Both the position numbers and the translations under genes were made by a program. Positions 1,101 to 62,625 of a stretch of 64,000 bases of DNA are shown one piece after another. Position 1 is the first letter of the stretch. Each line of letters starts with the position of its first letter. Where the stretch lies: the NCBI GenBank assembly GCA_038065395.1, contig JBBTRB010000004.1, forward strand, positions 135,178 to 199,177. Direction: 5' to 3'. The notes under the pieces are model-generated. The model made no database searches and was not told where the DNA came from. It saw nothing but the letters and a program-made list of their open reading frames with translations. This stretch comes from Patescibacteria group bacterium (GTDB taxonomy: Bacteria > Patescibacteriota > Minisyncoccia > Phycocordibacterales > PALSA-1337).

Positions 1101-1267
1101 ATAAATTCCCGGTAGCATATTTCTCCTTCATTGCCTGCGGAACTTGCTTCGTGCAATGGTAACGGAAATGTCTCGAGCCAGGCTGAGCGAGACATTTCCT
1201 AACCATTGCTACTCGCTTCGGACAGGTCCTCGGCCGCTTCAGGAGAAATATGCTACCGGGAATTTAT
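1101..1267. repeat. MITE-like element / long imperfect palindrome. 26-bp perfect terminal inverted repeats (1101..1126, 1242..1267) enclose an inner near-perfect hairpin (1153..1175 / 1188..1209)
   Basis: ataaattcccggtagcatatttctcc and its exact reverse complement ggagaaatatgctaccgggaatttat. Inner arms gcaatggtaacggaaatgtctcg / cgagacatttcctaaccattgc. Confidence 0.6.
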
Positions 1268-4828: not shown

Positions 4829-4858
4829 TGTCATCCCCGCGAAGGCGGGGATCCAGGA
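4829..4858 (+). repeat. 30-bp GC hairpin repeat, copy 1 (tgtcatccccgcgaaggcggggatccagga), REP-like
   Basis: Exact copy also at 19848..19877. Exact inverted copy at 4988..5017. Variant at 62599..62625. Confidence 0.8.
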
Positions 4859-4987: not shown

Positions 4988-5017
4988 CCTGGATCCCCGC
5001 CTTCGCGGGGATGACAA
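4988..5017 (-). repeat. 30-bp GC hairpin repeat, copy 2 (inverted orientation). Together with copy 1 it forms a perfect 30-bp inverted repeat around a 129-bp spacer
   Basis: tcctggatccccgccttcgcggggatgaca is the exact reverse complement of copy 1. Confidence 0.8.
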
Positions 5018-6884: not shown

Positions 6885-7247
6885 GAGGTTTCTCCCCCTT
6901 CTACAATTTAAGTGGCATCCAGCAGATGGCTTGTAGATGCGCCCACCATTTCTGCTAGCAACAAAAAGTCCGCTATTGGACGGACAGGTGTACCACGAGA
7001 AATGGAGACCTATCAGTCCAGCAACGGACTTAAATTTCTTGTGGCACTTTCTCCGTTCAATGAAAGAAGCATGCTACGAGTTTTGGAATCAGAAATTTTA
7101 TAAAACAAAATTGAAAAAATGTACTTGACCCTTTGACAGAGTTACAGATGAGTAAAATACCCCTTAAAATAAGGATATTCTAAAAACTAGAGAAAGGGTC
7201 AAAAAACACAGAATTGGCTGAATCGTAAAAAAACTATTTGACAGTAT

Positions 7248-7745: not shown

Positions 7746-10700
7746 ATGAATTTTTCACTGAATTCCTATATAAAATACTGTTTAGGCTATCTTAGTCTCA
7801 CAAGACCTACAGGATTCAATAGAGGCACTTCAATAGACATAAAAATCCCTCAAGAATATTTCTCCTTAAGTAAACTTACGAACGGTGATACGGACGGGAG
7901 TTTGAGTGAGATTATCAACTTAGACTATTACTACAATACAGACCCGAAGGATGTTACTGAAGAAAACGAAGAAAAGTATAAAAAGGAAAAGGCACTTGCG
8001 CTACAGCTAGATGAAATATACAGCAAAGCGAAAAATGACACTTTCACAAAAGAAACCATATTGCGTTTCGGACGTTTTGATTTTGAAGTACTCGAAGAGC
8101 CTATAGTTGATACAGACGAAGAAGTTTTAGAAACCAAAAAAGACACACCAGTAGAAGAAGCAAAATTGGTATCAAAACAATTTTACCTTTTTTCATTGCC
8201 AGTAAGAATTGATAAGGAAAAAGACAAAAATAATATCGATAAATACACGATTATTCCAGTTGACTTTGAAGTTCGCCTAAACCTTCCTCCACTGTACGAA
8301 ATTTTTAGAACTTACAAAAAAGAAGATTTGGTGTACGAATTTTTAAACGAATATACCAAACTAGAAAGCGAAGGTGGTTTTTCTATTCCAATCCCTTCTG
8401 AAAAAATATTCTTAGACTTATGGCACATTCTTAAGGCAAAATTACGCCTGACTGAAGCAGTTTTTAATGAAAGTTCATTTACTCTTGATGACCTTCGATT
8501 AACTCTTGCCCCAAGAGCAAACTTCTTCTTGGTTGAAGATTTAACAAAGCTAGCGAAAGAAAAAGAGGAGCTTTTGGAAGGTACTTCGCTCTCGGGTTGG
8601 TTTTCTGAAGAAGGTCTAAACGTAAATTCGGATAGTTGTGAAGAAAAATCTCTATATTTTCCATTCCCATATGATAAGTTTCAAAGCGCAACCACTTCTC
8701 TTCTAGGTAATAAGGCTTCAATAATCCAAGGGCCACCAGGAACGGGAAAATCAGAGACTATTTCAAACATAATTTCTCATCTTGCTGTAAATAAAAACAA
8801 GGTTTTGTTCGTAAGTCAGAAACCCCAAGCTCTACGTGTTGTGAAGGATAAACTGAAAACCCTAGGCGTACCTCTTTTATTTGGATATATCCCGAGCGTT
8901 AAATTTGAGCAATCCCAGGATGAAGAGAGCGACACCATATCGTCGCAACTTGCAGCACTCGATACATATGGAGCTTATAAAGGTGTTGTAAAATCATCTT
9001 CTAATCTGAATAGCTTTACTCAAAATTCAGATGTTGTTTTCGATAAAAGAGATAAAATCATCTCCCTTGAAAGAGAGATATTTAGGCTTGAAGAACAGAA
9101 GCGTAACTACGATTTTCTTGACCAATTACCCTCAATAGATGAAGAGAGAATTATAACCGACCTCACGGAAGATTTATTTAGTGCTTATAAAAATATACTT
9201 CACAAAATATCGGCAAATAAAAATCTTATTGAGAATACCCACGACATATCAAAAAAATATAGTTTTGATAAAGAGCTATTTTGCGATAGTACTTTTTCAG
9301 ATTTACTCAAGACTGTATTGGCAGATGTTAAAAAGACTGGTTTCGATAGGTCATTTAAACTTGGAAGGTATATAAATAATCTTAGTAGAAAAATAAGACT
9401 CAAATCTCATCTAGGACAACTACCAAAAGAAATTTATGAAGAAATAGACAGCATATTAAAAAAGGACTCATCGCGGCATAGCGCAACAAAAGAATTGGAG
9501 CAGCTACTCGGTTTCTGTATTTATTGGGAAGCAATACAAGAAAATGAGAAGTTAGAAATATCTTTACAAGAAATCGAAAGTAACTTAAATCTGTCCAGAG
9601 ATGATTTTTCTACAATTTCTTCTTTTTTGAAAGAAAACTCTTTATCAGTATCGGAGCTTGTTGTTAAGCTTTCCGACCGCGCTCTCTTGAATCACAACCA
9701 GCAAAATTTTAGAGAAGATATTTCAACCCTTAAGAAAGAAGTTACGGGTAAAAATCAAATTACAAGGAAAGATATAGTGGCGCAATACCTATCTTCAATA
9801 ATCGAAGACAATATAAAAAATAATGTCTCACAGGTTAAAATATACAGAAAGCTTCAAGAGTTACAGAAAGCTTTTAAAAAATCAAAGAAAGCTTTCAAAA
9901 CTTTCGATAAGTTGAAAAATGACCCGACCAACTTTGAGACAATATTGAACATTGTTCCTGTCTGGATTATGGATTTAGACGATGCAAGTCGTCTTATTCC
10001 TTTAGTCTCAAACATGTTCGATTATGTCGTATTTGATGAAGCATCACAGTGCAATATTGCGTACACAATACCCTCAATGTATAGAGCGAAAAAGGCTGTA
10101 TTTGTTGGCGACCCAGAACAAATGAGAGACAGTACTGTAATGTTTAAATCGAACCAAGCATTTGACCAGCTCGCGAGCCGTTACAAAGTACCAGAGAGTC
10201 TACAAATAAAACCGACGGGTACAGCAGTGCAGTCTGTTTTGGATATTGCTAAAACAAGATTTGGAATACCCAAGATACTTCAATATCACTACCGTTCTCC
10301 GATGGAGTTGATTGGTTTTAGTAATAAGTATTTTTATGAACCGAAAGGCAAACGGCTTATTGCTTTGAATAACAAATATCTTACTTATAAGGATACAAAT
10401 CGGATAATGGTGCTTCATAATATCGAGTACAGCGGTATTGGAGAGATTGGCGATAATACAAACAATGCAGAGGCAGTGAAAGCACTGGAGCTTTATCTAG
10501 ATATGATTAAAGACCCAAAGTATGAAAATAAGAGTTTTGCCATACTCACGTTTTTTAATGACCAAGCAGAGCTAATCCGAAAGGTTTTTGAAGATAACAG
10601 GATTAAAGAAAGTGATAAATTAAAAATTGCTGTAATAGAAGGTATTCAGGGGGATGAAAAAGATATTGTTATATATTCTTTCGTTATTAGGGATGCCGCA

Positions 10701-11261
10701 CAAAAAAGACAGTATCGCCCTCTGACAGGAGAAACTGGAGATATGCAGGCCGATATTAACGCAGGTAGAGTAAACGTTGCTTTCTCAAGAGCAAAGCTTC
10801 AAGTTCACTGTATTATAAGTATGCCTATAGAAAAAATACCTTCAGGTATATGGATAAAGAAATACCTGGAATATGTGAGAGACAACGGTGAGGTATCTGC
10901 TTCCAGATTAACACTTCAAAAATTCGATAGTTACTTCGAGGAAGAATTCTATCATCTTCTTAAAAAGAAGCTTGGTAAGGGCTACACAATTCAAAACCAA
11001 GTCGAAAGTTGTGGCTTTAAAATTGATTTTGTTGCAACTAACACAAGTACTGGAAGACAGTTAGCAATTGAATGTGATGGGCCGACACACTTTAAAGACC
11101 ACATCGACGAGGCATATGGTATTTATGTTGATAGTGATATTCAGAGACAGAGGGTTTTGGAAAGTGCTGGTTGGACATTCTGTAGAATTGGATATTCCGA
11201 ATGGATTGAGAGCGAGGATAATAAAGAAACTATCGTTAAAAACATCAAACTACTGCTTTAA
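7746..11261 (+). CDS. SF1 (Upf1/DNA2-like) helicase fused to a C-terminal DUF559/Vsr-like (PD-(D/E)xK) endonuclease domain, with a ~330-aa N-terminal region. Hhe-like single-protein defence architecture
   Basis: Walker A IIQGPPGTGKSETI, Walker B/motif II YVVFDEASQC, motif VI RVNVAFSRAKLQVH. C-terminus GFKIDFVA...LAIECDGPTHF...QRQRVLESAGWTFCRIGYSEW matches the DUF559/Vsr-like fold signature. Confidence 0.75.
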   Translation: MNFSLNSYIKYCLGYLSLTRPTGFNRGTSIDIKIPQEYFSLSKLTNGDTDGSLSEIINLDYYYNTDPKDVTEENEEKYKKEKALALQLDEIYSKAKNDTFTKETILRFGRFDFEVLEEPIVDTDEEVLETKKDTPVEEAKLVSKQFYLFSLPVRIDKEKDKNNIDKYTIIPVDFEVRLNLPPLYEIFRTYKKEDLVYEFLNEYTKLESEGGFSIPIPSEKIFLDLWHILKAKLRLTEAVFNESSFTLDDLRLTLAPRANFFLVEDLTKLAKEKEELLEGTSLSGWFSEEGLNVNSDSCEEKSLYFPFPYDKFQSATTSLLGNKASIIQGPPGTGKSETISNIISHLAVNKNKVLFVSQKPQALRVVKDKLKTLGVPLLFGYIPSVKFEQSQDEESDTISSQLAALDTYGAYKGVVKSSSNLNSFTQNSDVVFDKRDKIISLEREIFRLEEQKRNYDFLDQLPSIDEERIITDLTEDLFSAYKNILHKISANKNLIENTHDISKKYSFDKELFCDSTFSDLLKTVLADVKKTGFDRSFKLGRYINNLSRKIRLKSHLGQLPKEIYEEIDSILKKDSSRHSATKELEQLLGFCIYWEAIQENEKLEISLQEIESNLNLSRDDFSTISSFLKENSLSVSELVVKLSDRALLNHNQQNFREDISTLKKEVTGKNQITRKDIVAQYLSSIIEDNIKNNVSQVKIYRKLQELQKAFKKSKKAFKTFDKLKNDPTNFETILNIVPVWIMDLDDASRLIPLVSNMFDYVVFDEASQCNIAYTIPSMYRAKKAVFVGDPEQMRDSTVMFKSNQAFDQLASRYKVPESLQIKPTGTAVQSVLDIAKTRFGIPKILQYHYRSPMELIGFSNKYFYEPKGKRLIALNNKYLTYKDTNRIMVLHNIEYSGIGEIGDNTNNAEAVKALELYLDMIKDPKYENKSFAILTFFNDQAELIRKVFEDNRIKESDKLKIAVIEGIQGDEKDIVIYSFVIRDAAQKRQYRPLTGETGDMQADINAGRVNVAFSRAKLQVHCIISMPIEKIPSGIWIKKYLEYVRDNGEVSASRLTLQKFDSYFEEEFYHLLKKKLGKGYTIQNQVESCGFKIDFVATNTSTGRQLAIECDGPTHFKDHIDEAYGIYVDSDIQRQRVLESAGWTFCRIGYSEWIESEDNKETIVKNIKLLL

Positions 11262-11275
11262 ATAATATCTTATTA

Positions 11276-12871
11276 TTGTATATGCCTCTCTTAACAAAAA
11301 CAGACTTTATTTTGTATCGTGAATGTCCAAATAATGTCTGGTTGAAAAGAAACAAACCAGAGGAGTACTGTAAGTTTGAGATTTCTGAATTTGAAAAATC
11401 ACTTGCTGTAATAGGTAATGATGTAGAAGAGTTGGCTCGAGGGATGTTTCCTTCGGGTTATCTTGTGGAGCGGCGAAGTGCTGGCGCACAAGAATTAACT
11501 CAAAAGTTAATTGCTGAAAAAACTCCTGTGATTTTCCAAGCAGTTTTTGCTACTGATAAATGTCTTGCGGCTACTGATGTTTTGCAATGGAATGATTCAG
11601 CCCAGAAATATGATATTTATGAAATAAAGATGTCATCTACGGAAGAGGATGACGAAGAAGAAGTGGAAGAAGGGAAGCCTAAGAAAGTTAATAAAAAGAA
11701 AGAACTCCAGTATGAATATGACCTCGCCTTTCAGGTAAATATTGCCGAGGCATGTGGTGTTCCACTACATAAAAAATACCTTGTTTGTTTGAACCGAGCA
11801 TATGTAAGGAATGGTGAGCTTGATTTTAGACCGAACCAGCTTTTCATTGTTGAGGATAAAACCGACGCAATCGAACTTATGAAAGACGTCGTTGGAGCGG
11901 AGATGTCTCAATCACAAAACTTCCTAGCGGCCACTGCGATGCCTCCCAGCCCTTGTCCTTGCTATTACAAAGGGCGCAACTCGCATTGTACGGCATTTAC
12001 ATACTTAAACCCGACCGTACCCGCATACAGTGTCCATGACTTGAATAGAATCGGAAATAGTAAGAAGTATCTAAAAGAATTACTCGATGAGGGCATTTTG
12101 GAGATTAGCGCTGTTCCTGTTGATGATAGACTTAAGCCAAAGCCCAAGAAAAGTACAGAGAAACCAAGTAAGCCGAAAAAGTTAAACCAAGTCTTAGTTC
12201 ACAAATCTCAAGAGCCTTTAATTGATATTGATTCGATAAAAAATGAACTTGGCGCACTCGTATTTCCACTTTATTTTCTCGATTATGAGACTTATCCGAC
12301 AGCAATTCCTCCTTATAATGGTTATCGACCATATCAGCAAATTGTCTTTCAGTATTCATTACACATCCTGAAAGATAAAGATTCCGAACCGATTTCTTTG
12401 GAATGTTTAATATTAGACGGTGAACCTTCTGAACGTATAGTTAAAAGCCTGCGTGAACATATTGGTGATACTGGAACTGTAATTTCTTGGTTTAAGACTT
12501 TCGAAAACTCTAGAAATCGTGAGCTGGCAACCCTAATACCGAGCCGTAGAGATTTTCTTCTCGGTCTTATTACTCGAACGTATGATTTGATGGATATAGT
12601 AGATGGTCAGCATTACGTACATCCTGGTTTTGAAGGCAGAGCATCAATTAAAAAAGTTTTGCCTGTTATTGCTCCACATCTATCTTATAAAAAACTATGT
12701 GTCCAGAGTGGTACAGATGCAATTGAAGCGTATAGGCAAATAACTAAAGGAGAGTTAACAGGTGAATTAGCCAAAGAAAAGGAGCTTCAAATGCTTGAAT
12801 ACTGCAAGTTGGATACCTACGCCATGTACGTTTTATGGAACTTCTTCAATAAGTTAGTGGATGAAAGTTAA
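11276..12871 (+). CDS. DUF2779-like protein with an N-terminal Cas4/RecB-like nuclease region and a Cys cluster
   Basis: N-terminus KTDFILYRECPNNVWL, central CPCYYKGRNSHC, C-terminal block YFLDYETYPTAIPPYNGYRPYQQIVFQYSLHIL typical of DUF2779. It starts 15 nt after the helicase stop, so is probably co-transcribed. Confidence 0.55.
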   Translation: MYMPLLTKTDFILYRECPNNVWLKRNKPEEYCKFEISEFEKSLAVIGNDVEELARGMFPSGYLVERRSAGAQELTQKLIAEKTPVIFQAVFATDKCLAATDVLQWNDSAQKYDIYEIKMSSTEEDDEEEVEEGKPKKVNKKKELQYEYDLAFQVNIAEACGVPLHKKYLVCLNRAYVRNGELDFRPNQLFIVEDKTDAIELMKDVVGAEMSQSQNFLAATAMPPSPCPCYYKGRNSHCTAFTYLNPTVPAYSVHDLNRIGNSKKYLKELLDEGILEISAVPVDDRLKPKPKKSTEKPSKPKKLNQVLVHKSQEPLIDIDSIKNELGALVFPLYFLDYETYPTAIPPYNGYRPYQQIVFQYSLHILKDKDSEPISLECLILDGEPSERIVKSLREHIGDTGTVISWFKTFENSRNRELATLIPSRRDFLLGLITRTYDLMDIVDGQHYVHPGFEGRASIKKVLPVIAPHLSYKKLCVQSGTDAIEAYRQITKGELTGELAKEKELQMLEYCKLDTYAMYVLWNFFNKLVDES

Positions 12872-13013
12872 TTTATTACAAGTATGGATTCTAGGCTTTT
12901 AATCGAGAAAGCGATAGAATCTCTATATTTAACAAGTTCGGAAAGCCACCCTATAGGGTCACAAAATTTGAATGAACTTATTTTTTTATAACTAATAAAA
13001 ATTTAAAATACAT

Positions 13014-13535
13014 ATGCTCAAAATAAATTTTTATCCTGAAAGTGATCTGAAAGACTTTGCTGAAGCTGTTACTATTTTTGAAAAAATGTGGCAAGAAGAA
13101 GGGGAACGAATCACTGATACGTGGGAACGGGTTACAGGATTGAAGTTCATTGAAACAGAAATAAATGCAGTTGTTGCTGATCTCAAGAGTTGCTCTCACC
13201 CACTTACGTTGAGGTATAGCAATGAATATGATTTCAAGAAATCTACATTGGTACATGAACTCGGTCATCGCATACTATACAGACGGGAAAGTAGTGCTGG
13301 GAACAAAACGACATTTGAGAGACATAAGTTTTTGTTTCTGGTTTTGTACGATGTTTTCTGTGAACTATATGGTCAAGAGTTTACTTATAAAGTTATAGCT
13401 TGGGATAGTAGTCTAGGAAAAGACAAAGGTAGGTCAATGTATGAAGATGCCTGGCAATGGGCATTACAATATAAGACAAAAGAAGAACGACAAAAAATCT
13501 ACAAGGAAATCTTGTCAGGAGAATATGTTTTCTAA
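13014..13535 (+). CDS. HExxH metallopeptidase-like protein, ImmA/IrrE (COG2856)-like
   Basis: Motif STLVHELGHRILY (HELGH) in a ~173-aa protein. AT-rich. Confidence 0.5.
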   Translation: MLKINFYPESDLKDFAEAVTIFEKMWQEEGERITDTWERVTGLKFIETEINAVVADLKSCSHPLTLRYSNEYDFKKSTLVHELGHRILYRRESSAGNKTTFERHKFLFLVLYDVFCELYGQEFTYKVIAWDSSLGKDKGRSMYEDAWQWALQYKTKEERQKIYKEILSGEYVF

Positions 13536-13594
13536 TTTTCGATCTAGTAACTATAAAGTTCCCAACTCTAACTTTAAGTAGTATACTAGTTGGA

Positions 13595-14215
13595 ATGGAT
13601 TCAAAACCTACTGTACGATATGCATTTATAGATGTTCAGAACACTGAAGGGACAGTCAGTCACCTTCTCGGTTTTGTTATTGATTGGCATAAGCTCTACC
13701 ATTACCTCAAAGAACAATGGAATTGCGAAAAGGTATTTTTCTATTCTGGTATTGACCAAGGTAATGAAGATAAAATCGACGAACATCTTGCTCTAAAGAA
13801 TCTCGGTTATGAGATGTCCATCAAACCGTATAAGATATATAAAAATTCCGACAAAATCATTAAAATCATGTGTTCAAAATGCGCGAATGAAATCGACTAT
13901 AAAATTGAAGGTGGTGTCCGATGGAAATCAAATTGTGATGCGGAGCTTTCTGTTGATGCAACAAATCTGGCAAAATCTGGTGCTGAATTTCTGATCTTTT
14001 CAGGAGACGGAGATTTTGAGTGTGTAATAAGGAATGCCGTAGAAAAGGGGGTGAAGGTATACGTGGTCTCCAGCGCACGGAAAGTAAAGACTGGCTTACG
14101 TTACTCTTCATCGAGATTCTCAACCAAACTACGCGAGCTCATTGCTGAGAAACGTGATCTGGTTATTTTCAAAGATATCAATGACTGGAAGATGAGGATC
14201 AAAAAAGATATTTAG
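13595..14215 (+). CDS. NYN/LabA-like (PIN-fold) nuclease-domain protein with an inserted Cys4 zinc-ribbon
   Basis: N-terminal YAFIDVQNT and FSGDGDF acidic motifs typical of NYN domains. Insert CSKCANEIDYKIEGGVRWKSNCD. Confidence 0.55.
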   Translation: MDSKPTVRYAFIDVQNTEGTVSHLLGFVIDWHKLYHYLKEQWNCEKVFFYSGIDQGNEDKIDEHLALKNLGYEMSIKPYKIYKNSDKIIKIMCSKCANEIDYKIEGGVRWKSNCDAELSVDATNLAKSGAEFLIFSGDGDFECVIRNAVEKGVKVYVVSSARKVKTGLRYSSSRFSTKLRELIAEKRDLVIFKDINDWKMRIKKDI

Positions 14216-17057: not shown

Positions 17058-17124
17058 AAAGATCCTTATAGTTGATTGTTACAAAGAGCAAAATTGTCAT
17101 AGCAGAGGATAGCACCTTTGAAAC

Positions 17125-17198
17125 CCCTAGGGTAGGCCTAGGGACGAAAGTGAGCCATGCTAGAAGTATTTCGTACCTTCCTAGGCCTACCCTAGGGA
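17125..17198. promoter_or_regulatory. Perfect 18-bp inverted repeat (ccctagggtaggcctagg ... cctaggcctaccctaggg) with a 38-nt spacer in the divergent gmhB/csp intergenic region. Candidate operator or 5'-UTR structure
   Basis: Read directly. Located ~90 nt upstream of the cold-shock gene start. Confidence 0.5.
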
Positions 17199-17288
17199 AA
17201 TATCGACTGGACTTTGTGGTGGTCTCATGCTATGCTTATTGCACAAAGAAAACACGTCGAGTTTCTTCAAGTATTTTAAAACAACATC

Positions 17289-19847: not shown

Positions 19848-19877
19848 TGTCATCCCCGCGAAGGCGGGGATCCAGGA
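19848..19877 (+). repeat. 30-bp GC hairpin repeat, copy 3 (solo), immediately downstream of the valS stop
   Basis: Identical to 4829..4858. Confidence 0.8.
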
Positions 19878-20972: not shown

Positions 20973-22247
20973 ATGAAAAAAATATCTATAGACGCACCTT
21001 TAGTAGCACTCGGTGGACTTATCATCTTGGCAGGAGGCATGCTCATCACGTCTTCGGTCACACAGATCGGTAGCATATATCGCACGATTGCCCAGGAGGC
21101 TCCGGCAGAGAGTCAGCTCGCACAAGTCGGTGGTGGTGGAGGCTTCGGCAATGAAGTCAAGGGTTGGGCATGGTCGTCGAACGTCGGCTGGATCAGTTTC
21201 AACTCTACTGACGCTGGTGCAGGTGGCGGTCCGTACAAAGTCTCGATCTCTACTACAACCGCAAATCCAACTCTCGGTAAGTTCGGTGGATATGCCTGGT
21301 CTCCGAACGTCGGCTGGATCAGTTTCAACTCCGCTGATGTCTCAGGTTGCCCAGAAGTCGGCACTCTCGATGGTTGCAACCCGGCAGTCAGTCTGACCAG
21401 TGGCGCAGTCACTGGCTATGCTCGTGTCCTGTCCATGAAGAATGAGTCTGGCGATGGTTGGGTACAACTTTCAGGTACCAACCACCCAAGTGCTTCGGGA
21501 GACTCGAGTGGTGTTACTTTCAACACAAGTACCAAAGACTTCACTGGCTATGCTTGGGAGCCTACTGCTTTGGGCTGGATACTCGTCGATGCGAAACTAG
21601 ATAGTGTGGCAAGTGTTCAGTCTGGTCTGCAGGTGACCTGTTCGAGTTCTGCTGCTCCTTCGAACACTGTCGCTGCAGGTGCATCCGTCACATTCACTGC
21701 TAATGTCACCGGAGGAACATCACCATATTCATATACCTGGGGTTCATGTGGTACGAATTCGAACACCTGTGCGGTGACATACGGTGCATCTGGTACTGGC
21801 CCATCACTCACGGTGACCGATAGTACTTCACCTACCGCACTTTCAAAATCTCCAAGTCCTTCTTGCCCAGTCATCACCGTCAACACGACCTCATCCGGCA
21901 CCAACCTCTTCATCGGCTCCAACATCTCAACTACCAAGACTTCTCATTCTCTGAGACAAGGCAACATCTTTGCTCTGAGTTGGACTGATGCCCCGACAGA
22001 CTATGATTCTTGTGAACTCACTATCAGTAACGGTGGAAATGGATATTGGACCAATGCGATAGATGCAGTATCTGGTAGTGGGGCACAAGCAGGGAACATT
22101 GCAGGGCTTCTGACGGCCGTGTCTTCAGGCGTGCAACGTGGTAACTACACATTCACTCGTACGTGTCATGATGCCGAAGCACTTCTTCCACCGCAGCCTT
22201 CCACAGCCACCCTCCGTATTGTGGGCGCCTCCGGCGAAGAATTCTAG
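20973..22247 (+). CDS. Secreted/membrane-anchored repeat protein with three GW...ISFNS units
   Basis: N-terminal hydrophobic segment. Repeated KGWAWSSNVGWISFNSTD / GGYAWSPNVGWISFNSAD. 28-bp identical DNA repeats at 21178..21205 and 21304..21331. Confidence 0.6.
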   Translation: MKKISIDAPLVALGGLIILAGGMLITSSVTQIGSIYRTIAQEAPAESQLAQVGGGGGFGNEVKGWAWSSNVGWISFNSTDAGAGGGPYKVSISTTTANPTLGKFGGYAWSPNVGWISFNSADVSGCPEVGTLDGCNPAVSLTSGAVTGYARVLSMKNESGDGWVQLSGTNHPSASGDSSGVTFNTSTKDFTGYAWEPTALGWILVDAKLDSVASVQSGLQVTCSSSAAPSNTVAAGASVTFTANVTGGTSPYSYTWGSCGTNSNTCAVTYGASGTGPSLTVTDSTSPTALSKSPSPSCPVITVNTTSSGTNLFIGSNISTTKTSHSLRQGNIFALSWTDAPTDYDSCELTISNGGNGYWTNAIDAVSGSGAQAGNIAGLLTAVSSGVQRGNYTFTRTCHDAEALLPPQPSTATLRIVGASGEEF

Positions 22248-22367
22248 GGGCTAGTCCAGGATCTTCACCTGCTTCGTTATTTTCTGCGCTCAAACTCTCA
22301 CCATATACGCGATATGGCTCGAGCTTTCGCTTGAAAATGCCTCGCATCTGAAAGATCCTGGATACGC
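22242..22367 (+). repeat. ~120-bp dispersed repeat, copy A
   Basis: Roughly 85% identical by manual alignment to the reverse complement of 53722..53838. Confidence 0.7.
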
Positions 22368-22440
22368 CCTTATGAGATGCTAGCCATTTTCACTAAAAAT
22401 GCTAGAATGAAGGCACGTTCGGATAGACAGAGTAGTTTCT

Positions 22441-45037: not shown

Positions 45038-45077
45038 GAAGGCAGGGTAACTAGAGAAAAGTAACTGGTAACAAGAA

Positions 45078-45108
45078 AAAGCCCCTGGTTTTTGCCAAGG
45101 GTTTTTCT
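45078..45108. terminator. Bidirectional terminator between convergent rplI and rpmA (A-run, GC hairpin, T-run), nested in a larger 20-bp inverted repeat (45055..45130)
   Basis: aaaaagcccctggtttttgccaagggttttt read directly. Confidence 0.6.
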
Positions 45109-45152
45109 ACTTTCTAGTTACGAGTTACTTTTCTCCTATTACACTCCTTCAC

Positions 45153-53123: not shown

Positions 53124-53710
53124 CAGTCTATTGTAGCATCTGGAGACTGACTTGGAGGGAGGGGTGTTGCTGTGGATTGTTTGAAAGCTTCTATATCCTT
53201 CCTGACAGTGTCGTATTCGGGAAGTTCGGCAATAGAAGAAAGGCCGAGATGCGACAGAAGCTCGATGCTCGACCGGTACATGTAGCTACGTGCATCGGTA
53301 GGATTTTCGATACGTTCGACCAGTCCTCGAACAAGGAGGTTACGGATGATGAACTGCGAGTTGACCCCACGGATATAGTCGATATCAGCACGAGAGATCG
53401 GACCTTGGTATAGGATAATTGAGAGAGTTTCTAGTCCTGCTTTACCGAGGTCTCGGACGAGTTCCTCTTTTGTAAGTTGTTCGATCAGAGAACTGAATTC
53501 CTTTGCAGTACCAAGAGTTACTTCTGTGTCGGTTTGTACCAGTGTAATACCTCTATTTTGAAGGCTACTGACAAGAGTTTCTATACCCTTCCGGATCGAA
53601 GGTTCATCTGTAGAAAGGAGAGCCGAGAGCTTCTTGATCGTGACTGGTTCGGCTTTCCAAAAAAGGATGGCCTCGATCTGTTGAGGGAGATTCATGTCTA
53701 CAGTATACAC
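53123..53710 (-). CDS. scpB: Segregation and condensation protein B
   Basis: QQIEAILFWKAEPVTIKKLSALL and winged-helix pair. Adjacent to scpA. Confidence 0.8.
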   Translation of the reverse strand: MYTVDMNLPQQIEAILFWKAEPVTIKKLSALLSTDEPSIRKGIETLVSSLQNRGITLVQTDTEVTLGTAKEFSSLIEQLTKEELVRDLGKAGLETLSIILYQGPISRADIDYIRGVNSQFIIRNLLVRGLVERIENPTDARSYMYRSSIELLSHLGLSSIAELPEYDTVRKDIEAFKQSTATPLPPSQSPDATID

Positions 53711-53721
53711 AATCCTTTAGA

Positions 53722-53838
53722 GCGTATCCACGATCTCCATATGGCAGGCTTATTCAAGCGAAAACTCGAGGCATATCGAGTATATGGTGAGAGTTTGAGC
53801 GCAGAGAATAACGAAGCGGATGGAGATTGTGGACTAGC
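53722..53838 (-). repeat. ~120-bp dispersed repeat, copy B (inverted relative to copy A at 22242..22367)
   Basis: Manual alignment, ~85% identity. Both copies contain a conserved 33-codon ORF (MAGLFKRKLEAYRVYGESLSAENNEADGDCGLA versus MRGIFKRKLEPYRVYGESLSAENNEAGEDPGLA). Confidence 0.7.
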
Positions 53839-53840
53839 TT

Positions 53841-54059
53841 TTATGCAATCTGAAGCTGATTTTCGGTGCGTGATATCCTATGTTCGTGGTCTGGGAGTTC
53901 GACGTCATGGTGCTTGAGGAGCAAGTCGATTTTCTTGAATTCTAGACGAGTTTCTGCTCTGAATTCAGCAAGGTCTCGTGCGGATTCTTTGAAGCCCTTG
54001 TTAACCATAAGTGCAAGGTCATCTAATGTAATAGGATTTTGATTGGATGAAGTATTCAT
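53841..54059 (-). CDS. Hypothetical small protein (72 aa)
   Basis: ORF only. Confidence 0.35.
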   Translation of the reverse strand: MNTSSNQNPITLDDLALMVNKGFKESARDLAEFRAETRLEFKKIDLLLKHHDVELPDHEHRISRTENQLQIA

Positions 54060-62598: not shown

Positions 62599-62625
62599 AG
62601 ATCCCCGCCTGCGCGGGGATGACGT
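62599..62625 (-). repeat. GC hairpin repeat, copy 4 (variant: atccccgcctgcgcggggatgac)
   Basis: One-mismatch relative to the reverse-complement consensus. Intergenic between grpE and rpsI. Confidence 0.7.

What the first reader, a model, noticed from the sequence alone, without database searches (positions are those of the whole stretch)
22242..22367. ~120-bp dispersed repeat (copy A) with a conserved 33-codon ORF; its inverted partner lies 31 kb away
Manual alignment shows roughly 85% identity between 22242..22367 and the reverse complement of 53722..53838. Both copies are intergenic: after the GW-repeat protein gene, and between scpB and a small ORF.

Both contain an ATG-initiated 33-codon frame (MRGIFKRKLEPYRVYGESLSAENNEAGEDPGLA versus MAGLFKRKLEAYRVYGESLSAENNEADGDCGLA). 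The differences are a mix of synonymous and non-synonymous changes. This is compatible with either a small peptide gene or an sRNA/MITE family.
Basis: seen in the sequence. Interest (0 to 1): 0.6.

Follow-up and report, generated by a model that had tools for sequence, protein, structure and literature searches.

The report
Widespread hairpin repeat, not peptide gene
The two similar 120-base stretches are copies of an uncatalogued hairpin-forming repeat scattered through the genomes of groundwater Patescibacteria and Nitrospira, and the small 'gene' read inside it is only a by-product of the sequence.

Summary
The repeat is real: 22250-22350 and 53738-53838 are 86% complementary, and the flanks are unrelated.

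The "33-codon ORF" is not real. Neither copy has a stop after codon 33. The ATG occurs in only 13 of 40 family members, and one relative lost it through a stem-preserving double change. The apical loop varies from 5 to 9 nt, so the frame breaks.

Each copy is a ~120-nt imperfect hairpin (z -6 to -7). I found two more copies in the same genome, copies in relatives, and about 45 more in Patescibacteria, Saccharibacteria and many Nitrospira. They occur roughly once per 30 kb and always lie between genes.

Covariation is very strong: 35 of 43 pairs show double changes, and 91% of cells are paired against 29-39% in slid controls. An apical core is conserved across phyla, while the basal stem is lineage-specific. 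One strand folds better in 40 of 40 copies, whatever the gene orientation.

At two loci, close relatives carry a full copy, an inverted copy, an 8-14 nt remnant, or nothing.

There is no Rfam match, no linked gene, and no transposase in the window.

Best reading: a new ERIC/REP/MITE-like mobile hairpin repeat recognised in single-stranded form. The mobilising enzyme is unknown.

The parts
22248..22369 (-). Copy A of the hairpin repeat. The better-folding strand is the minus strand. On the plus strand it runs from GGGC (22248) to GCCC (22369). It starts 1 nt after the TAG stop of the 424-aa gene and ends 71 nt before the acyltransferase start.
   Evidence: Fold -58.7 kcal/mol, z -7.2 on the minus strand, against -51.1 on the plus strand. 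CM R1 gives 148 bits and R2 115.7 bits on the minus strand.
53721..53839 (+). Copy B of the hairpin repeat. The better-folding strand is the plus strand. It lies between the stop of the 72-aa ORF (53841-53843) and the scpB start (ATG 53695, alternative GTG 53710).
   Evidence: Fold -49.4 kcal/mol, z -5.9 on the plus strand, against -41.4 on the minus strand. CM R1 gives 141.3 bits and R2 108.6 bits on the plus strand. L001 from Hainich well H41 is 100% identical.
22271..22342 (-). Apical core of copy A. This is the part conserved between Patescibacteria and Nitrospira: A-GGC, AGCGAA, CGAG-C(C/G)(A/G)UA, loop, UA(U/C)GGUGAG, U-GAGCG, AAC-GAAGC.
   Evidence: Consensus of 40 copies. The G.U pair is invariant and the inner helices covary.
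53746..53817 (+). Apical core of copy B.
   Evidence: Same alignments.
53702..53730 (-). Promoter-like site in front of scpB. Its -35-like hexamer TGGATA (53730-53725) is supplied by the terminal arm of copy B. The -10-like TATACT is at 53707-53702, 6 nt before the ATG at 53695.
   Evidence: Consensus scan only. The same -10 and a TGGACT hexamer occur at the equivalent place in L006. The 14-nt remnant in L004 keeps exactly that hexamer. Function is inferred, not shown.

Best explanation
The two stretches are copies of a dispersed, non-coding, ~120-125-nt imperfect-palindrome repeat. It behaves like a non-autonomous mobile element of the ERIC / Correia / REPIN kind.

Each copy folds end to end into one long hairpin. 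The top third carries a sequence module conserved from Patescibacteria to Nitrospira: an invariant G.U pair, two GAGCGA/GAGCGA tandem G.A steps, and a CGUAC/GUACG helix. The bottom ~25 bp is specific to each lineage and is kept paired by compensatory changes.

The fold is optimised on one strand only, and equally so whichever way the copy faces its neighbouring genes. I therefore infer that the structure serves the element's own propagation. A trans-encoded enzyme, not linked to the copies and not identified here, would recognise the folded single strand (ssDNA or RNA), with the apical module as its recognition site. It would then copy or move the element to new sites at gene ends, often at TA-containing sequences such as stop codons.

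Once inserted, a copy has side effects on the host. It abuts or supplies the stop codon of the upstream gene. It places a strong hairpin in 3'-UTRs or between cistrons. Its end can provide a -35 box, as at scpB.

Shown: repeat family, hairpin, covariation, strand asymmetry, intergenic dispersal, presence/absence/inversion/remnant polymorphism, absence of coding constraint.

Inferred: mobility mechanism, single-stranded recognition, trans enzyme, effects on the host.
For: Family and structure:
- Two copies lie in the window. Copy C is on L003 and copy E on L007, both from the same population or genome. Copy D is in a relative (L006) and copy F in a more distant one (L009).
- A degenerate core pattern found 67 loci in GTDB species genomes. 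About 43 of them score 37-83 bits with R1 and 72-120 bits with R2 over the full length. The rest are chance matches.
- 35 of 43 pairs show double changes. 90.9% of cells are paired against 29-39% when partners are slid, and 0 of 500 shuffles reach any observed measure.
- An independent MAFFT + RNAalifold run recovers the inner helices, with 15 of 25 pairs compensatory.

Strand specificity:
- G.U/U.G cells number 87 against 21 A.C/C.A.
- The model strand is more stable in 40 of 40 copies, -58.3 against -47.1 kcal/mol.
- The asymmetry is about -11 kcal/mol in both sense and antisense copies.

Mobility:
- Two copies in MAG nzgw440 are 98.4% identical over exactly 123 nt at unrelated loci.
- scpA-scpB locus: the window has the copy in one orientation, L006 in the other, L004 keeps a 14-nt remnant, and L005 has none.
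- aspS-aroC locus in Nitrospira: L047 is filled, L077 and L078 keep an 8-nt remnant, and L080 and L079 are empty.
- Truncated and internally deleted copies exist.
- Flanking direct repeats are in excess (p about 0.002).

No coding constraint.

No conserved neighbouring gene.
Against: - No autonomous partner or mobilising enzyme was found. None of the window ORFs of 100 aa or more has a transposase, integrase, RT or HUH domain. No recurrent gene sits next to the copies.
- The flanking repeats are inconsistent. They are TTA/TAA/CTTAG in the window genome, 6 bp in nzgw440, and absent in most Nitrospira copies. A classical fixed-length target duplication is therefore not established.
- The conservation pattern, with a conserved centre and variable ends, is the opposite of TIR-driven MITEs.
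- Orthologous copies persist across Nitrospira species and are more conserved than the flanking genes (91.9% against about 82%). That also fits a host function, or gene conversion among copies.
- Copies A and B face opposite ways relative to a uniformly positive GC skew. This argues against a strict lagging-strand ssDNA mechanism of the IS200/IS605 type.
Confidence: 0.55

Rival explanations
1. A host-beneficial structured RNA element. It would act in cis within mRNAs as a 3'-UTR or intercistronic hairpin that stabilises, terminates or directs processing, and it would bind a conserved host protein through the apical core. Copies would be maintained by selection at each locus rather than by mobility.
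For: - Covariation is strong, and the conserved internal-loop motifs (invariant G.U, tandem G.A) are typical of RNA-protein recognition.
- Position is tight against stop codons. In about 21 of 46 copies one end lies within -4 to +2 nt of a stop.
- Copies sit inside operons, for example histidine kinase | element | response regulator | element in L064.
- Orthologous copies are better conserved than their flanks.
Against: - The fold is optimised on the same element strand in 40 of 40 copies, yet about half of the copies are antisense to the surrounding genes. The host mRNA then carries the weaker complement.
- Some antisense copies leave no room for their own promoter (10 nt in L064; 10-25 nt at scpB).
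- There is no U-tract.
- Copies come and go between close relatives, flip orientation at one site, and decay to remnants.
Confidence: 0.25
2. A single-stranded DNA site, comparable to an integron attC, an IS200/IS605 or REP hairpin, or a priming signal. A chromosomal recombinase or a replication protein would use it, and its folded bottom strand would be the substrate.
For: - Folding is strand-specific even with DNA energy parameters (39 of 40 copies).
- Many copies have the folding strand antisense to the gene whose stop codon they abut, as attC bottom strands do.
- There is no need for, and often no room for, a promoter.
Against: - There are no attC core sites (RYYYAAC / GTTRRRY). This comes from my reading of the alignments.
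- No integrase or Y1/HUH gene lies in the window or near the copies.
- The flanking genes are housekeeping genes, not cassettes.
- Orientation relative to genes is about 1:1, and copies A and B are opposite relative to GC skew.
Confidence: 0.1
3. A small protein gene of about 33 aa. The hairpin would be incidental or regulatory.
For: An ATG-initiated open frame occurs in the five copies from the window lineage and in copy F. Gene callers called it three times: P0001, P0002 and P0123. Between copies A and B, five codons differ synonymously.
Against: - There is no conserved stop; lengths are 64, 58, 44, 103 and 39 aa, with unrelated tails.
- The ATG is absent in 27 of 40 copies, and copy D lost it by a compensatory pair change.
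- An RBS occurs in copy A only.
- Loop-length changes break the frame, so the conserved blocks are in frame in only 17 of 40 copies.
- A against B has 6 non-synonymous and 5 synonymous codons. Reading the alignment, A against C has about 6 against 1.
- No homologous proteins exist beyond translated copies of the element among 5.8 and 1.8 billion sequences.
Confidence: 0.02
4. A chance similarity, or a recent segmental duplication within this genome.
For: Only two copies are visible in the 64-kb window.
Against: The flanks are unrelated. The central 23-mer has 0 chance expectation. Dozens of homologous copies occur in other genomes and phyla.
Confidence: 0.01

Closest known systems
ERIC / IRU elements of Enterobacteriaceae and Vibrio (about 127-bp imperfect palindromes)
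   Same: Same size. Both form a single long imperfect hairpin with a better-conserved central part. Both are extragenic, lie within or next to transcription units, and occur in both orientations. Copy number and presence vary between relatives, and TA often lies at the ends. The ERIC features are from established knowledge; those of this family are.
   Different: There is no sequence similarity to anything in 5,426 E. coli genomes. The hosts are Patescibacteria and Nitrospirota. The apical core is conserved across phyla. The strand asymmetry of folding and the depth of covariation are documented here.
Correia (CREE/NEMIS), RUP and other bacterial MITEs
   Same: Short, non-coding and dispersed. 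The inverted ends can pair into a hairpin. They insert at gene ends, their ends can supply promoter boxes, and no transposase lies inside.
   Different: In MITEs the terminal inverted repeats are the conserved part, and a fixed target duplication is present. Here the ends are lineage-specific and covary, the centre is conserved, and the flanking repeats are inconsistent. No parent IS was found.
REP / BIME / REPIN elements mobilised by RAYT (TnpA-REP) Y1 transposases
   Same: Extragenic palindromes close to stop codons. Recognition is thought to act on a folded single strand by an enzyme encoded elsewhere in the genome. Many Nitrospira copies are preceded on the complementary strand by (C/G)TAG, which recalls the GTAG head of REPs.
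   Different: REPs are 20-40 nt, and REPINs are two REPs with a poorly conserved spacer. Here there is one continuous 120-nt hairpin with a conserved tip. No RAYT gene was seen in the window or near the copies. The folding strand is the one on which CTA(G) lies 3' of the hairpin, not 5'.
Integron attC sites
   Same: Imperfect hairpins of 60-140 nt directly after the stop codon of the upstream gene. They are conserved in structure more than in sequence at the base. One strand, often antisense to the gene, is the folded and active one.
   Different: No R''/R' core sites, no integrase, no co-oriented cassette arrays, and the neighbours are housekeeping genes.
Rfam RNA families
   Same: This is a long hairpin RNA-like motif with covariation of the quality usually required for a new Rfam family.
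   Different: No family reaches its gathering score. With permissive settings the best E-values are 0.34, 0.092 and 6, for unrelated eukaryotic or sRNA models. A resemblance I recalled to group II intron domain 5 is not supported by any Intron_gpII hit.

Membership tests
Small protein-coding gene | Start codon conserved among homologues | tested here: not met
   ATG is at that column in 13 of 40 copies; the others have CAG, GTT, CGG or CTG. Copy D has CTG after a compensatory change.
Small protein-coding gene | Conserved stop codon and length | tested here: not met
   There is no stop after codon 33. Lengths are 64, 58, 44, 103 and 39 aa, with unrelated tails.
Small protein-coding gene | Reading frame kept across conserved blocks | tested here: not met
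   The apical loop is 5-9 nt. The GGTGAG block is in frame with the 'start' column in only 17 of 40 copies.
Small protein-coding gene | Excess of synonymous over non-synonymous change | tested here: not met
   A against B has 5 synonymous and 6 non-synonymous codons. The changes track base pairs.
MITE (non-autonomous DDE transposon) | Many dispersed copies with unrelated flanks | tested here: met
   At least 4 copies in the source genome or population and about 50 copies in held loci.
MITE (non-autonomous DDE transposon) | Insertion polymorphism between related genomes | tested here: met
   Shown at the scpA-scpB locus and the aspS-aroC locus.
MITE (non-autonomous DDE transposon) | Target-site duplication of fixed length | tested here: inconclusive
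   Direct repeats are in excess (p about 0.002). However, they are 3-6 bp of varying sequence and are absent in most Nitrospira copies.
MITE (non-autonomous DDE transposon) | Terminal inverted repeats shared with an autonomous IS that encodes the transposase | not testable with these tools
   No transposase lies in the window or next to the copies. Whole genomes could not be scanned for split copies.
REP / REPIN-RAYT | 20-40-nt palindrome units with a conserved GTAG head, and a RAYT gene flanked by REPs | tested here: not met
   The unit is one 120-nt hairpin. No Y1 transposase domain occurs in window ORFs. A (C/G)TAG is adjacent in only some of the Nitrospira copies.
ERIC / IRU | Sequence homology to the enterobacterial ERIC consensus | tested here: not met
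   blastn with word size 11 finds no match in any complete E. coli genome.
Integron attC | R''/R' core sites, integrase nearby, co-oriented cassette arrays | tested here: not met
   The ends are GCAGGATG...CATCCTGC or GAGCGTATCC...GGACTAGCTC, with no GTTRRRY. There is no integrase. Orientations are mixed.
Intrinsic (Rho-independent) terminator | GC-rich stem followed by a U-tract | tested here: not met
   No terminator-like site lies at the element ends. The single hit is the apical stem of copy B, inside the element.
Any Rfam 15 family | Score at or above the family's gathering threshold | tested here: not met

The most novel reading that the evidence does not exclude
The family is a new class of non-autonomous mobile element. 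Its conserved apical module, not its ends, would be the recognition site for an unidentified trans-acting enzyme that propagates it through a strand-specific single-stranded (RNA or ssDNA) intermediate. Its sharing by Nitrospira and several Patescibacteria lineages, which dominate the same groundwater and wastewater habitats, would then record genetic exchange between a host and its episymbionts.
Probability: 0.15. Interest if true: 0.8.

Novelty: new variant of a known kind. Interest (0 to 1): 0.58.

Why it matters
Patescibacteria have very small, streamlined genomes. Even so, this one carries a 120-nt repeat about every 30 kb, placed hard against stop codons and inside operons of housekeeping genes.

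The same element core occurs in Nitrospira, the main nitrite oxidisers of groundwater and wastewater, which have cultured and genetically characterised representatives. The covariation is as strong as for accepted structured RNA families, yet the element is in no catalogue.

If it is mobile, it is a marker for strain typing and for horizontal exchange between two phyla that co-occur, and it points to an unknown mobilising activity. If it is a host RNA motif, it is a widespread post-transcriptional signal in organisms whose regulation is almost unknown.

For annotation, it explains spurious small ORFs that gene callers place on these elements, such as the 64, 44, 103 and 39-aa 'proteins'.

Tried and rejected
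- **Exact 20-mer scans.** The 20-mer from the centre gave nothing in genome contigs or viral contigs. In metagenome contigs it found only the source population (L001) and a chance eukaryote-like hit (L002). It was too strict: copy C differs at 2 of the 20 positions.
- **Peptide route.** Searching protein databases with the translated frame worked as a way to find copies that gene callers had translated. It returned no real protein family.
- **Rfam.** Gathering thresholds and permissive E-values on copy A, copy E and a Nitrospira copy gave nothing relevant.
- **Group II intron domain 5.** The resemblance of GAGCCGUAU...UACGGU was recalled from memory and is not supported by cmscan, so I dropped it.
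- **Linked gene.** All-against-all clustering of 237 neighbouring ORFs shows no recurrent family.
- **Transposase, integrase, RT or HUH in the window.** None found.
- **Phage or plasmid carriage.** No match in viral contigs, INPHARED phages or PLSDB plasmids.
- **Homology to ERIC or REP of E. coli.** None.
- **Hairpin boundaries by MFE folding with flanks.** Spurious outer pairs made this uninformative.
- **Fixed target duplication.** Not supported uniformly.
- **Orientation bias.** Relative to genes it is about 17:17 in tandem gene pairs (my tally). Relative to replication, copies A and B are opposite under a uniformly positive GC skew.
- **Literature.** Searches on REP or MITE with Nitrospira or Patescibacteria, and on core sequence strings, found no description of this family.
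- **More copies in the window.** The 41-sequence model with filters off finds only A and B.
Full report
**1. The observation**

The two stretches are reverse-complement copies of one another. The repeat finder reports arms 22250-22350 and 53738-53838, 101 nt long and 86% complementary. The pairwise alignment carries the similarity over about 120 nt and shows that it ends abruptly on both sides. A 23-mer from the centre occurs exactly twice in the window, against zero expected.

Copy A begins one base after the TAG stop (22245-22247) of a 424-aa Ig-like protein and ends 71 nt before an acyltransferase gene. Copy B lies between the TAA stop of a 72-aa ORF (53841-54059, minus strand) and the start of scpB. 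That 72-aa ORF and copy B together separate scpA from scpB.

A metagenome contig from Hainich groundwater well H41 is 100% identical to the copy B region. The ScpB protein is identical to one annotated in an NCBI 'Patescibacteria group bacterium' MAG whose longest contig is 761,713 bp. A contig of that length in GCA_964357315.1 carries another copy of the element.

**2. The ORF**

The quoted peptides are correct for 33 codons, but neither frame stops there. The CTAG that looks like a stop is out of frame. The frames run on to 64 aa (A) and 58 aa (B, inside a 146-aa open frame), and their tails are unrelated.

- Only copy A has an AGGA upstream of the ATG, and the ATG itself is paired within the stem.
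- A against B shows 5 synonymous and 6 non-synonymous codon differences.
- Across the family the ATG is present in 13 of 40 copies.
- In the relative L006 it became CTG through a CAU/AUG to CCU/AGG double change that keeps the helix.
- The apical loop is 5-9 nt long, so the conserved blocks on its two sides are in frame in only 17 of 40 copies.
- Searches of 5.8 billion and 1.8 billion proteins returned only translations of other copies of the element.

The peptide gene is refuted.

**3. What each copy is**

Each copy folds from end to end into one long imperfect hairpin. The energies are -58.7 kcal/mol (A, minus strand) and -49.4 kcal/mol (B, plus strand), with z-scores of -7.2 and -5.9 against shuffles. 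The differences between A and B in the lower stem are compensatory, for example GG/CC against CG/UG.

**4. More copies**

- The translated frame found a third copy, C, on L003. It comes from the same well, has different flanks and is 90% identical to A.
- It also found a fourth copy, E, on L007, inside the 761-kb contig, between an unknown gene and an M50 peptidase.
- It found a divergent copy, F, on L009, between tmk and the SHMT gene in another metagenome.
- ScpB orthologues gave copy D on L006.
- A covariance model built from A-D (R1) scores these copies at 91-154 bits on one strand and 33-46 bits on the other.

**5. The family is large and crosses phyla**

I scanned 185,579 species genomes with a degenerate pattern that all six copies satisfy: AGCGAA-N5-GAG-N15-19-GGTGAG-N5-RAGYG. 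It matched 67 loci. R1 and a second model built from 41 sequences (R2) give full-length hits in about 43 of them, at 37-83 bits with R1 and 72-120 bits with R2.

By record title, the matching loci come from:
- Patescibacteria group MAGs, including two from well H41;
- Kaiserbacteria, Parcubacteria and Saccharibacteria;
- more than 20 Nitrospira / Nitrospiraceae / Nitrospirota species;
- one Ilumatobacteraceae MAG.

The remaining loci belong to unrelated taxa and have no model hit. Their number is about what chance predicts for the pattern (my estimate).

At least five 8-kb loci hold two or three full-length copies (L014, L025, L031, L041, L064). With two copies in this 64-kb window, that suggests about one copy per 30-35 kb (inference).

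**6. Structure is under selection**

On the model-based alignment of 41 copies:
- 35 of 43 pairs show changes on both sides;
- 90.9% of cells are standard pairs, against 29-39% when the 3' partners are slid by 1-3 columns;
- none of 500 shuffles reaches any observed measure.

That alignment is fitted to the model. An independent MAFFT + RNAalifold run on 26 copies nevertheless recovers the inner helices, with 15 of 25 pairs compensatory.

Conservation is inverted relative to ordinary MITEs. The apical third is nearly invariant from Patescibacteria to Nitrospira. It reads A-GGC, AGCGAA, CGAG-CGUA, loop, UACGGUGAG, U-AGCG, AAC. It contains a G.U pair present in 41 of 41 copies and two GAGCGA/GAGCGA steps that can form tandem G.A pairs. 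The basal ~25 bp is lineage-specific: GCAGGATGNTCAAAAAG... in Nitrospira, GAGCGTATCCAGGATC... in the window genome, and other sequences elsewhere.

**7. One strand is the folded one**

G.U/U.G cells outnumber A.C/C.A cells 87 to 21, not counting the invariant G.U. The model strand is more stable than its complement in 40 of 40 copies with RNA parameters (mean -58.3 against -47.1 kcal/mol) and in 39 of 40 with DNA parameters.

The asymmetry is about -11 kcal/mol in both classes of copy, sense and antisense to the flanking genes (my tally). The fold is therefore a property of the element itself and not of the host mRNA that happens to run through it.

**8. Context**

- Almost all copies are intergenic.
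- In about 21 of 46 copies the 3' end of the folding strand lies within -4 to +2 nt of the stop codon of a gene on the other strand. The complement of the element then directly follows that stop codon, as at copies A and B.
- In Nitrospira this stop can be TAG, TAA or TGA, and its last base is the first base of the hairpin.
- In about 10 copies the 5' end follows the stop of a gene on the same strand.
- In tandem gene pairs the two orientations are about equally common (17:17 by my tally).
- Neighbouring genes are housekeeping genes such as DnaB, AspRS, ValRS, Lnt, scpAB and tmk/glyA.
- In L064 one copy follows the histidine kinase gene and another follows the response regulator gene of the same operon.
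- No gene family recurs next to the copies.
- No window ORF of 100 aa or more has a transposase, integrase, RT or HUH domain.
- The family has no Rfam match and no match in viral contigs, phages, plasmids or E. coli genomes.

**9. Evidence that copies move and decay**

- Two copies in MAG nzgw440 are 98.4% identical over exactly 123 nt (GAGC...GCTC) at unrelated loci. They are flanked by ACTTTT/ACTTTT and by CAGTCG/CAATCG.
- At scpA-scpB, the window has the element in one orientation. L006 (ScpB 81% identical) has it at the same place in the opposite orientation. L004 (83%) keeps only the last 14 nt. L005 (78%) has overlapping scpA and scpB and no element.
- At aspS-aroC in Nitrospira, L047 has the element. 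L077 and L078 (AspRS 93%) keep only CATCCTGC. L080 (90%) has a 6-nt spacer. N. japonica has no element.
- Truncated and internally deleted copies exist.
- Flanking direct repeats are more frequent than in permuted controls (p about 0.002) but are not uniform. They are TTA/TAA or CTTAG in the window lineage, 6 bp in nzgw440, TAG...TAG in a few Nitrospira copies, and absent in most.
- Conversely, orthologous copies persist between Nitrospira species and are better conserved than the flanking genes (91.9% against about 82%).

**10. How it most likely works**

*Shown.* This is a non-coding, strand-specifically structured, dispersed repeat that is gained, lost, inverted and eroded between close relatives.

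*Inferred.* The structure serves the element's own propagation. A trans-encoded enzyme recognises the folded single strand through the conserved apical module, and the element is copied or moved to gene ends. TA-containing stop codons are tolerated or preferred targets, because the element's first purine restores the stop. I put this at about 0.55.

The main rival, at 0.25, is a host-selected cis-acting RNA hairpin. It fits the stop-codon proximity, the operon positions and the orthologous conservation. It does not explain why half of the copies present the weaker complement to the host mRNA. A single-stranded DNA site for a recombinase or replication protein is possible (0.1). It lacks any associated gene, and copies A and B face opposite ways under a uniformly positive GC skew.

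*Possible side effects, from consensus matches only.* The arm of copy B supplies a -35-like TGGATA 17 nt upstream of a TATACT that sits 6 nt before the scpB ATG. The remnant in L004 retains exactly that piece.

**11. Comparison with known elements**

The closest analogues are the ERIC/IRU elements. They match in size, in having a single hairpin with a conserved centre, in extragenic position and in occurring in both orientations. Next come Correia-type MITEs and then REP/REPIN-RAYT systems.

Membership in any of these is not established:
- there is no sequence homology to ERIC;
- there is no fixed target duplication and no parent IS, as a MITE would require;
- the unit is not a 20-40-nt REP, and no RAYT gene was seen;
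- there are no attC core sites and no integrase.

It works like these elements but is a separate family with an unusual conservation architecture and host range.

**12. Novelty and limits**

I found no description of this family in Rfam 15 or in the searchable literature. That does not prove that none exists.

I could not scan whole genomes, so copy numbers are extrapolations. The mobilising activity, the true boundaries and target duplication, and the nature of the folded strand (RNA or DNA) remain open. The covariation counts rest partly on model-fitted alignments. Taxonomic labels are those of the MAG records, and the single Actinomycetota copy may be a mis-binned contig.

Noticed in passing
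window 4831-4854 (+), 4991-5014 (-), 19850-19873 (+), 62599-62622 (-): A second repeat family, TGTGTCATCCCCGCGAAGGCGGGGATCCAGGAT. It has a GC-rich hairpin CCCCGC-GAAG-GCGGGG. Three copies are exact over the 24-mer searched and one differs at 2 positions. Two copies sit right after the stop codons of the PBP gene (4804) and a class I tRNA synthetase gene (19822). It looks REP-like or terminator-like.
   Followed up: partly
window 53841-54059 (-): A 72-aa ORF with no Pfam match is wedged between scpA and scpB. The relatives L004 and L006 keep only its last ~9 codons (DRENQLQIT*) directly after scpA, and L005 has overlapping scpA and scpB. This small gene is therefore gained or lost at the same spot as the repeat.
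   Followed up: partly
window 53702-53730 (-): The end of copy B supplies a -35-like TGGATA for a promoter-like site whose -10 TATACT lies 6 nt before the scpB ATG, so the scpB mRNA would be nearly leaderless. The 14-nt remnant of the element in L004 retains the equivalent TGGACT.
   Followed up: partly
window 7746-14215: A low-GC stretch (0.36 at 8-12 kb). It encodes a 1171-aa AAA_11/AAA_12 helicase fused to an MTES_1575/DUF559 nuclease, a DUF2779 protein and a NYN-domain protein. It may be a foreign or defence island inside an otherwise housekeeping region.
   Followed up: no
window 1101-1267, 45044-45145, 6963-7033, 17115-17210: Other long inverted repeats or hairpins in intergenic DNA, for example upstream of mraZ and after the L9 gene. 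They are unrelated in sequence to the family studied. The family model scores them only 13-19 bits.
   Followed up: no
L064 6101-6233 and 6636-6769: In a Patescibacteria MAG, one copy follows the histidine kinase gene, with the response regulator starting 10 nt later, and a second copy follows the response regulator gene. Both are antisense to the operon.
   Followed up: partly
L059 1416-1549: An Ilumatobacteraceae (Actinomycetota) MAG carries a copy of the Nitrospira subtype. This is either cross-phylum transfer or a mis-binned Nitrospira contig.
   Followed up: no
L063 603-689; L060 1497-1560: Decayed family members. One keeps the outer stem but lacks the apical core, and one lacks the 5' arm.
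   Followed up: partly
window 22271-22342 (-) and all copies: The core GAG(C/G)CGUA(U/C)...(A/G)UACGGU, with its invariant G.U, resembles from memory the lower helix of group II intron domain 5. Rfam gives no Intron_gpII hit at E up to 10, so this is probably coincidence.
   Followed up: yes
P0001, P0002, P0123, P0124 (public protein collections): Gene callers have annotated 64, 44, 103 and 39-aa 'proteins' that are merely the open frame of this repeat running into the flanking DNA. These are spurious entries in protein databases.
   Followed up: yes
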